A stretch of DNA of 64,000 nt from Escherichia coli (GTDB lineage Bacteria > Pseudomonadota > Gammaproteobacteria > Enterobacterales > Enterobacteriaceae), in assembly GCF_003018255.1 (NCBI RefSeq), contig NZ_CP027440.1; one strand, 5' to 3'. Shown one piece after another: positions 57,056 through 60,000 of the stretch. Position 1 is the stretch's first letter; each line of letters starts with the position of its first letter. The position numbers are program-made.

Positions 57056-60000
57056 GGCTGCGGCGACGATCCTTTACACCTTTATTGGCGGTTTCCTCGC
57101 GGTGAGCTGGACTGACACTGTACAGGCCAGCCTGATGATTTTTGCCCTGATCCTGACGCCGGTTATCGTGATCATTAGCGTCGGTGGGTTTGGCGACTCG
57201 CTGGAAGTAATCAAACAAAAGAGCATTGAAAACGTGGATATGCTCAAAGGGTTGAATTTTGTCGCCATTATCTCGCTGATGGGCTGGGGACTGGGTTACT
57301 TCGGGCAGCCGCACATTCTGGCGCGTTTTATGGCGGCGGATTCTCATCACAGCATTGTCCATGCGCGTCGTATCAGTATGACCTGGATGATCCTCTGCCT
57401 GGCAGGGGCGGTGGCTGTCGGCTTCTTTGGTATCGCTTACTTTAACGAGCACCCGGCGGTAGCAGGTGCGGTAAACCAGAACGCTGAACGCGTGTTTATT
57501 GAACTGGCGCAAATTCTGTTTAACCCGCGGATTGCCGGGATTTTGCTGTCGGCGATTCTGGCGGCGGTAATGTCAACGTTAAGTTGCCAGCTGCTGGTAT
57601 GTTCCAGTGCGATTACCGAAGATTTATACAAAGCGTTTCTGCGTAAACAGGCCAGCCAGAAAGAGCTGGTGTGGGTAGGGCGAGTGATGGTGCTGGTGGT
57701 GGCGCTGGTGGCGATTGCGCTGGCGGCAAACCCGGAAAACCGCGTGCTGGGCTTAGTGAGCTACGCGTGGGCAGGCTTTGGCGCAGCGTTTGGTCCGGTG
57801 GTGCTGTTCTCGGTGATGTGGTCACGCATGACGCGCAACGGTGCGCTGGCGGGGATGATCATCGGTGCGCTGACGGTTATCGTCTGGAAACAGTTCGGCT
57901 GGCTGGGTCTGTACGAAATTATTCCGGGCTTTATCTTCGGCAGTATCGGGATTGTAGTGTTTAGTTTGCTGGGTAAAGCGCCGTCAGCGGCGATGCAAAA
58001 ACGCTTTGCCGAGGCCGATGCGCACTATCATTCGGCTCCGCCGTCACGGTTGCAGGAAGGGTAAGGGACTTAGCCTGCGGCGGTTTTGTTTGGCTTCAGC
58101 AGCGGGTTGCGCTCCCTTAATGTGCCTCGCCATATAAATTGAATGGTGCAGGGAGCGCGCAGGGGGCGGCCAATCGCCGCCGCCCCCTGCACCCCCGGGC
58201 TCTGGCGAACAAAATCGCCGCTGCGCGGTACCTTCAGCTTATCCCCTTCGGCTACCGGGTCGGGCGCGAGGTAACGTCCTGTAAGACGCGCCCTCAGCCC
58301 ACATCCATGTGGGCTGCCCCGGCCTTCGGGGAACGCTTCAGCGATTTTGACGCCACCAACACCCGAGCTGTTATTATGTTCCGGGCAAAAAGTTAGATTT
58401 GATAATCGCGGATGGACGAAATTGCTTGATACACCCGCTTATCAGTTTTACATGGAAGCTCTGATGCATTGAGTCTGGACAGTTTTGTCGGCTGGATAAG
58501 GCATTTACGCGGCATCTGGCAAGAACACATGGCTCGTTGTAAACAATCCCATCTTTGTACCTGGAATAATCGTTTATATCCCCTGGCATTACCTTTCTTT
58601 GTTTACATTCCAACATCATTTTATAAACATTCTGCTTGTATTTTTCTTTACCGTAATGATAATCGCTATCACTGCGATTTACTTTTCTTTGCATAGATTG
58701 ACTCAGAAAAACGTTTAAGGGTGGGTGGCATGTTTGTTCCGTTTCTCATTATGTTGCGCGAAGGACTTGAAGCCGCGCTGATTGTCAGTTTGATTGCCAG
58801 CTATCTTAAGCGTACCCAGCGAGGCCGATGGATTGGTGTGATGTGGATTGGCGTGCTGTTTGCCGCTGCGTTGTGCCTGGGCTTGGGTATCTTCATTAAC
58901 GAAACCACCGGCGAATTTCCGCAAAAAGAACAGGAACTGTTTGAAGGTATCGTGGCGGTGATCGCCGTGGTGATCCTTACCTGGATGGTTTTCTGGATGC
59001 GCAAAGTGTCGCGCAACGTCAAAGTGCAACTGGAACAGGCAGTCGATAGCGCATTGCAGCGTGGAAATCATCATGGCTGGGCGCTGGTGATGATGGTCTT
59101 TTTTGCCGTTGCAAGGGAAGGGCTGGAGTCGGTCTTTTTCCTGCTGGCGGCGTTTCAACAAGATGTCGGGATCTGGCCGCCGCTGGGTGCAATGCTCGGT
59201 CTTGCTACAGCCGTGGTGCTCGGCTTCCTGCTCTACTGGGGCGGTATTCGCCTCAATCTTGGTGCATTTTTTAAATGGACCAGCCTGTTTATTCTCTTCG
59301 TCGCCGCAGGGCTGGCGGCTGGTGCCATTCGCGCATTTCATGAAGCCGGATTGTGGAACCACTTTCAGGAAATCGCCTTCGATATGAGTGCGGTGCTCTC
59401 AACTCACTCGCTGTTTGGCACGCTGATGGAAGGGGTTTTTGGCTATCAGGAAGCGCCGAGCGTCAGCGAAGTCGCCGTCTGGTTTATTTATCTCATCCCG
59501 GCGCTGGTGGCATTTGCTCTGCCACCACGCGCAGGGGCGACAGCGTCTCGCTCCGCGTAACAAATACGACGCAAACTCTTGCTTAGTTACAACATACTTT
59601 AAAGGGATAGTCTCGTCATGACCATTAACTTCCGCCGTAACGCATTGCAGTTTAGCGTGGCTGCGCTGTTCTCTTCTGCTTTTATGGCTAACGCCGCTGA
59701 TATTCCGCAGGTCAAAGTCACTGTGACAGATAAACAGTGCGAACCGATGACCATTACGGTTAACGCCGGGAAAACACAGTTCATTATTCAGAACCACAGC
59801 CAGAAGGCGCTGGAGTGGGAGATCCTCAAAGGCGTGATGGTGGTGGAAGAGCGGGAAAATATCGCCCCTGGTTTTAGCCAGAAAATGACGGCGAATTTAC
59901 AGCCTGGCGAATACGATATGACCTGCGGTCTGCTGACTAACCCGAAAGGGAAGTTGATCGTCAAAGGTGAGGCAACGGCGGATGCGGCGCAAAGTGATGC

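What the first reader, a model, noticed from the sequence alone, without database searches (positions are those of the whole stretch)
58730..59560. efeU is a single intact frame
As I recall it, K-12 efeU (ycdN) carries a frameshift and is a pseudogene, leaving EfeUOB inactive. Here the 276-codon frame is uninterrupted and has both REGLE motifs, with efeO and efeB intact downstream and a Fur-box-like site upstream (58653..58670). The acid-induced ferrous-iron uptake system is therefore predicted to be functional.
Basis: partly seen in the sequence, partly recalled or inferred. Interest (0 to 1): 0.4.

Follow-up and report, generated by a model that had tools for sequence, protein, structure and literature searches.

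The report
Ordinary intact efeUOB iron-uptake operon
The window carries the normal, uninterrupted form of the E. coli efeUOB ferrous-iron uptake operon; the broken efeU is a long-known quirk of the K-12 laboratory lineage, so this is ordinary.

Summary
Every factual element of the finding checks out. efeU (58730..59560, +) is one 276-codon frame with REGLE motifs at residues 10-14 and 129-133. efeO (375 aa) and efeB (423 aa) follow intact. A Fur-box-like site (58654..58670) lies 60-76 nt upstream of the start codon.

K-12 MG1655 efeU is annotated as a frameshifted pseudogene. The lesion is loss of one G from the GG at window 58835-58836 (codon 36), which gives a stop at codon 37.

The interpretation (a system predicted to be functional) is reasonable. 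EfeU differs from the experimentally functional O157:H7 protein at 2 of 276 residues, both conservative.

It is not news. The K-12 deletion allele occurs in 368 of 5,426 complete E. coli genomes, and all 60 listed carriers have K-12 or laboratory-strain names or sources. About 93% of genomes matched at this site have the undeleted form. The exact EfeU, EfeO and EfeB proteins are already in public databases under those names. The K-12 defect and the activity of the intact system were published in 2006-2007 (Grosse et al.; Cao et al.).

Verdict: a real feature, correctly read, already known, of low interest.

The parts
58654..58670 (+). Fur-box-like site TAATGATAATCGCTATC, 60-76 nt upstream of the efeU ATG
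   Evidence: 15/17 match to the Fur consensus core; the only hit in the window, and 0 of 100 shuffles gave one. Identical in K-12, O157:H7 and JNE23-011. A Fur box at efeU was reported computationally in PMC4145685. Binding was not tested here.
58730..59560 (+). efeU: intact 276-codon gene for the FTR1/OFeT-family inner-membrane iron permease
   Evidence: ORF. Pfam FTR1 300.7 bits over residues 1-275. NCBIfam EfeU equivalog 330.1 bits against a cutoff of 255. 2/276 differences from O157:H7 EfeU. The exact protein is already public as E. coli EfeU.
58757..58771 (+). First REGLE (REXXE) motif, residues 10-14
   Evidence: Translation.
58835..58836 (+). GG dinucleotide in codon 36 (GGT, Gly36). 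K-12 has a single G here, which shifts the frame to a stop at codon 37
   Evidence: Global alignment of the window against MG1655. The K-12 feature is flagged 'frameshifted'.
59114..59128 (+). Second REGLE (REXXE) motif, residues 129-133
   Evidence: Translation.
59618..60745 (+). efeO: periplasmic cupredoxin + M75 (imelysin) protein, 375 aa, intact
   Evidence: Pfam Cupredoxin_1 and Peptidase_M75. NCBIfam EfeO 766.6 bits. PDB 7wgu 'EfeO' at E=8.5e-227. HxxE motif at residue 217.
60751..62022 (+). efeB: Tat-exported DyP-type haem peroxidase/deferrochelatase, 423 aa, intact
   Evidence: Pfam Dyp_perox_N and Dyp_perox_C. NCBIfam TIGR01412 617.3 bits against a cutoff of 428. PDB 2y4f and 3o72 at E about 1e-265. 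RRRLL twin-arginine motif at residue 14, GFKDG with D235, H329 and R347 all present. Identical to EfeB of the closest genome.

Best explanation
This is the wild-type efeUOB operon of a non-K-12 Escherichia coli, in its usual chromosomal place between putP and phoH. EfeU is a seven-helix FTR1/OFeT-family inner-membrane permease whose two REXXE motifs handle iron. EfeO is a Sec-exported periplasmic cupredoxin-M75 protein, and EfeB is a Tat-exported periplasmic DyP haem peroxidase. By homology to the characterised O157:H7 and Nissle 1917 systems, the three proteins together import ferrous iron, with repression by Fe2+-Fur, induction at low pH and negative control by CpxAR.

Shown here: gene integrity, family membership, motifs, near-identity to the characterised proteins, a conserved Fur-like site, and the exact nature and lineage restriction of the K-12 frameshift.

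Inferred, not shown: actual transport activity, Fur/CpxR binding and acid induction in this strain.
For: The frame is intact, and the K-12 one-G deletion maps to codon 36. All three proteins match the family models full-length and above the curated cutoffs. REGLE occurs twice; the EfeB Tat motif and D235/H329/R347 are present, as is the EfeO HxxE motif. EfeU, EfeO and EfeB differ from O157:H7 at 2/276, 7/375 and 4/423 residues with no indels. The 84 nt upstream of the ATG, including the Fur-like site, are identical to K-12 and O157:H7. Synteny is rut-putAP-efeUOB-phoH-pga. The K-12 allele is found in 368 of 5,426 genomes, and all 60 listed have K-12 or laboratory-strain names or sources. Every sampled non-exact match spans 54 record bases for the 53-base K-12 probe, so it carries the extra G. 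The exact proteins are already deposited as E. coli EfeU/EfeO/EfeB. Literature: PMC2808357 (MG1655 transporter non-functional because of the efeU frameshift), PMC4746246, PMC9174327, PMC4145685 and PMC9600279.
Against: No functional data exist for this strain. This EfeU carries two lineage-specific substitutions, L44F and I236V, relative to the majority and O157:H7 sequence. They are conservative, but their effect is untested. The simple sigma-70 scan found no consensus promoter in 58000-62600, so the promoter itself was not located here. The primary papers (Grosse 2006; Cao 2007) were not available to read; their content is taken from titles and from papers that cite them.
Confidence: 0.9

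Rival explanations
1. The operon is intact but contributes mainly to extracting iron from haem (EfeB acting as a deferrochelatase) rather than, or in addition to, importing free ferrous iron.
For: NCBIfam and PDB entries name EfeB 'deferrochelatase/peroxidase'. PMC9174327 summarises reports of both a peroxidase role and removal of iron from haem for EfeB.
Against: This does not exclude ferrous-iron uptake. EfeU has the full FTR1 permease signature with both REXXE motifs, and the literature describes the tripartite system as an Fe2+ transporter. Nothing in the sequence separates the two roles.
Confidence: 0.25
2. The genes are intact, but the system is silent or impaired in this strain because of the lineage-specific missense changes (EfeU L44F and I236V; EfeO with 7 differences from O157:H7) or the altered far-upstream region (the 124-nt insert relative to K-12).
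For: The substitutions are listed. The putP-efeU spacer is 665 nt here against 542 nt in K-12.
Against: All the substitutions are conservative and lie outside the REGLE motifs. The exact EfeU and EfeO sequences recur on 66 and 65 contigs, consistent with a maintained allele. The insert lies more than 400 nt upstream, and the proximal 84 nt are identical to O157:H7.
Confidence: 0.05
3. The uninterrupted frame is a sequencing or assembly artefact at a short G run, and the true sequence carries the K-12-type deletion.
For: The difference is a single base in a GG dinucleotide.
Against: GG is not an error-prone homopolymer. About 93% of the complete genomes matched at this site carry the same undeleted sequence. 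The window also differs from K-12 at 7 other positions in efeU, so it is not a K-12 derivative.
Confidence: 0.01

Closest known systems
EfeUOB (YcdNOB) of E. coli O157:H7 (Cao et al. 2007) and EfeU of E. coli Nissle 1917 (Grosse et al. 2006)
   Same: Same three genes in the same order with the same lengths. Identity to O157:H7 is 99.3% (EfeU), 98.1% (EfeO) and 99.1% (EfeB). The proximal upstream region with the Fur-like site is identical.
   Different: EfeU has F44 and V236 where O157:H7 has L44 and I236. O157:H7 carries an extra 1,344-nt 'hypothetical protein' gene between putP and efeU, and its sequence diverges from the window upstream of about 58602. No Nissle sequence was compared here.
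efeU pseudogene of E. coli K-12 MG1655
   Same: Same locus and synteny; 98.2% DNA identity over 58400-59700. efeO and efeB are intact in both, and the Fur-like site is identical.
   Different: K-12 lacks one G of the GG at window 58835-58836, giving a 36-residue product and a stop at codon 37. K-12 also lacks 124 nt (58189-58312) of the putP-efeU spacer.
Yeast Ftr1p-Fet3p oxidase-dependent iron permease (OFeT family)
   Same: EfeU belongs to the same Pfam FTR1 family and has the paired REXXE motifs. PMC9174327 describes EfeU as an Ftr1p homologue.
   Different: The partner proteins are a cupredoxin-M75 protein and a DyP peroxidase, not a multicopper ferroxidase.

Membership tests
EfeU / FTR1 (OFeT) iron permease | Full-length match to the family profile above the curated cutoff | tested here: met
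   Pfam PF03239 300.7 bits (cutoff 25.3), residues 1-275. NCBIfam NF041756 EfeU equivalog 330.1 bits (cutoff 255). TIGR00145 349.7 bits (cutoff 303.8).
EfeU / FTR1 (OFeT) iron permease | Two REXXE motifs | tested here: met
   REGLE at residues 10 and 129.
EfeU / FTR1 (OFeT) iron permease | Seven transmembrane helices | tested here: inconclusive
   A Kyte-Doolittle scan (window of 19, threshold 1.6) gives six clear hydrophobic segments: about 1-24, 32-60, 68-94, 146-173, 177-204 and 242-266. The expected seventh (about 117-142) carries the charged second REGLE and falls below the threshold. No dedicated topology predictor was available.
EfeU / FTR1 (OFeT) iron permease | Uninterrupted reading frame (not the K-12 pseudogene allele) | tested here: met
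   No indel against the intact alleles of O157:H7 and two close genomes. One extra G relative to K-12.
EfeUOB tripartite system | efeU followed by efeO (cupredoxin + M75) and efeB (Tat-dependent DyP peroxidase) on the same strand | tested here: met
   Gene order and spacers of 57 nt and 5 nt. Domain hits. RRRLL Tat motif, D235/H329/R347 in EfeB and HxxE in EfeO. PDB matches 2y4f, 3o72 and 7wgu.
EfeUOB tripartite system | Fur-dependent iron repression (Fur box in the promoter) | tested here: inconclusive
   A 15/17 Fur-consensus match at 58654-58670 beats chance and is conserved. Literature reports a computationally detected Fur box at efeU. Binding and repression cannot be tested here.
EfeUOB tripartite system | Low-pH Fe2+ uptake activity; acid induction and CpxAR control | not testable with these tools
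   Rests on the literature only (Cao et al. 2007 as cited).

The most novel reading that the evidence does not exclude
The lineage-specific features might give this lineage an efeUOB with altered activity or regulation compared with the characterised O157:H7 and Nissle systems. Those features are the EfeU L44F/I236V allele, the EfeO variant, and the full-length copy of a dispersed ~260-nt repeat in the putP-efeU spacer. Nothing observed points to this; it is simply not excluded.
Probability: 0.03. Interest if true: 0.2.

Novelty: already known. Interest (0 to 1): 0.05.

Why it matters
It matters little. It confirms that this strain, like nearly all natural E. coli, keeps the third ferrous-iron route (EfeUOB) that K-12 lost. 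That is relevant only as a reminder that K-12 is atypical for iron physiology. No open question becomes testable because of it.

Tried and rejected
- I tried to read the primary papers (PubMed 17627767 and 16987175). Neither is held, so the promoter map, transcription start and CpxR site could not be taken from them.
- The generic sigma-70 promoter scan found no site in 58000-62600, so no promoter is placed. On the + strand, its terminator-like hits all lie inside the efe genes or upstream of efeU.
- EfeU has no sequence relative among solved structures.
- An Rfam scan of the whole window found nothing in or near the efeU leader.
- I considered Shigella as the source, because no complete E. 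coli genome exceeds 99.5% identity. I dropped this: the exact proteins are all deposited as E. coli and synteny is standard.
- I considered assembly error at the GG site and rejected it (see the rival explanations).

Full report
**The observation**

The window has an ATG at 58730 that opens a 276-codon frame ending with TAA at 59558-59560. A GTG three codons upstream is also in frame, but RefSeq annotation of the closest genomes uses the same ATG and the same 831-nt length. The protein has REGLE at residues 10-14 and 129-133.

efeO follows after a 57-nt spacer (59618..60745, 375 aa). efeB follows five bases after that (60751..62022, 423 aa). Both are uninterrupted.

The claimed Fur-box-like site is real. 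TAATGATAATCGCTATC at 58654..58670 matches 15 of 17 positions of the Fur consensus core. It is the only such match in the 64-kb window, and none of 100 dinucleotide-preserving shuffles produced one.

**Identity of the genes**

- EfeU matches Pfam FTR1 end to end (300.7 bits). It also matches NCBI's EfeU equivalog model (330.1 bits, cutoff 255).
- EfeO has the cupredoxin and M75/imelysin domains. It matches the EfeO models at 766.6 and 478.1 bits.
- EfeB has both DyP peroxidase halves. It matches the Tat-substrate EfeB equivalog (617.3 bits, cutoff 428).
- EfeB matches the solved E. coli YcdB/EfeB structures 2y4f and 3o72 at E about 1e-265. EfeO matches 7wgu at E=8.5e-227. EfeU has no solved relative by sequence.
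- EfeB keeps the twin-arginine motif RRRLL, the GFKDG motif with D235, and H329 and R347. EfeO keeps an HxxE motif.
- A simple hydropathy scan of EfeU gives six clear hydrophobic segments. A seventh is plausible but falls below the threshold, because it carries the charged second REGLE.

**The K-12 comparison**

In MG1655 (NZ_CP009685.1) efeU is an 830-nt feature flagged as a pseudogene, 'frameshifted'. Global alignment shows seven substitutions plus one missing G at window 58835, gene nucleotide 106. In the window codon 36 is GGT. K-12 has lost one G of the GG, so it reads ...W34 I35 V36 stop.

**Comparison with a functional reference**

Differences from O157:H7 strain PV15-279, with no length changes in any of the three:

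| Protein | Differences | Details |
|---|---|---|
| EfeU | 2 of 276 | F44 for L, V236 for I |
| EfeO | 7 of 375 | |
| EfeB | 4 of 423 | |

In a sample of 15 cluster members plus O157:H7, the window's EfeU is the only one with F44 and the only one with V236; the others have L44, and I236 in 14 and F236 in one. Both changes are conservative and lie outside the REGLE motifs. The 84 nt preceding the ATG, including the Fur-like site, are identical in the window, K-12, O157:H7 and the closest genome.

**How unusual the intact allele is**

It is not unusual.

- The efeU region is present in 5,417 of 5,426 complete E. coli genomes.
- A 53-nt probe carrying the K-12 deletion matches exactly in 368 genomes. 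All 60 listed have K-12 or laboratory-strain names or sources (MG1655, C600, DH5alpha, DH1, J53, NCM3722, RR1, ER strains and evolved MG1655 clones).
- Every sampled full-length non-exact match to that probe spans 54 bases in the record, so it carries the extra G.
- The 54-nt intact probe matches exactly in 3,847 genomes. Of the other 1,548 matches, the sampled rows were SNP variants of intact length, one K-12-type record and one partial match.
- So about 93% of the complete genomes matched at this site have the undeleted form.
- The exact EfeU, EfeO and EfeB sequences of the window are already deposited as E. coli proteins, on 66, 65 and 253 contigs respectively.

**Context**

The locus sits in the standard chromosomal arrangement torCAD-cbpAM-agp-wrbA-rutGFEDCBA-rutR-putA-putP-efeUOB-phoH-pgaDCB. 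The first 25 kb of the window are also core E. coli genes (yccS, helD, hya, app, etk). The closest complete genomes are 99.4-99.5% identical.

**Literature**

- PMC2808357 states that the MG1655 efeUOB transporter is non-functional because of a frameshift in efeU, citing Grosse et al. 2006.
- The title of Cao et al. [quoted passage not shown] It is cited in PMC4746246, PMC9174327 and PMC9600279.
- PMC9174327 summarises the component roles: EfeU as a seven-helix Ftr1p homologue, EfeB as a Tat-exported haem DyP peroxidase, and EfeO as a Sec-exported cupredoxin-M75 protein.
- PMC4145685 lists efeU as controlled by Fur and CpxR, with a computationally detected Fur box.
- The two primary papers are not held in the library.

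**Mechanism**

Gene integrity, family membership, motifs and conservation of the regulatory site are shown here. Fe2+ import at low pH, Fur repression and CpxAR control are inferred from near-identity to the characterised systems. A role for EfeB in extracting iron from haem (reported in the literature) is compatible with the sequence and cannot be separated from ferrous-iron uptake by sequence alone.

**Verdict**

The finding is accurate, but it describes the wild-type state of a well-characterised operon. The notable allele is K-12's, not this one. Novelty: already known. Interest: very low.

Noticed in passing
window 58106..58365 (indel 58189..58312): The putP-efeU spacer contains a GC-rich dispersed repeat of about 260 nt. 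It is 89.8% identical over 264 nt to the yohP-dusC intergenic region of a K-12-type laboratory strain. Its 141-nt core occurs at a median of 3 and up to 8 places per E. coli genome. At this locus K-12 lacks the internal 124 nt. There was no Rfam match, and I could not name the element.
   Followed up: partly
upstream of window ~58565-58635; L003 1907..3250: The region upstream of efeU varies between strains. In different groups of genomes, similarity to the window starts only at about 58565, 58602, 58627 or 58635. O157:H7 has a 1,344-nt 'hypothetical protein' gene on the opposite strand between putP and efeU. The Fur-like site and everything downstream of it are retained in all.
   Followed up: partly
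window ~62030..62150: Just after the efeB stop codon there are two or three palindromic units of REP type (GCCGGATAAGGCGTT(C/T)ACGCCGCATCCGGC-like). Recognition rests on my own knowledge of REP elements. No + strand terminator-like site was found after efeB.
   Followed up: no
window 63238..63431 (-): Rfam match to Ysr251 (Yersinia antisense sRNA) at 190.8 bits, antisense to the 3' end of phoH. It may simply reflect conservation of the phoH coding sequence.
   Followed up: no
window ~42628..42729 (from L004 5629..5730): Between cbpA and agp the closest genome has only a 102-nt pseudogene remnant, where many other E. coli carry yccE. Alignments to yccE-bearing genomes break into 3 pieces and span about 1.1 kb more of those genomes, which suggests that yccE is deleted in this lineage.
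   Followed up: no
window 41007..41186 (-), 29903..30325 (+), 10999..11083 (-): Other Rfam hits: two tandem naRNA4/CssrE (REP325-type) units, a cspA-type thermoregulator leader, and a tRNA.
   Followed up: no
efeU region in the 'E. coli genomes' collection: Seven matches to the efeU region lie on records labelled as plasmids, and 9 of 5,426 genomes have no match at all. One genome (F2_81, NZ_CP043542.1) matches only the first 36-44 nt of the probes, which suggests an independent disruption of efeU there.
   Followed up: no
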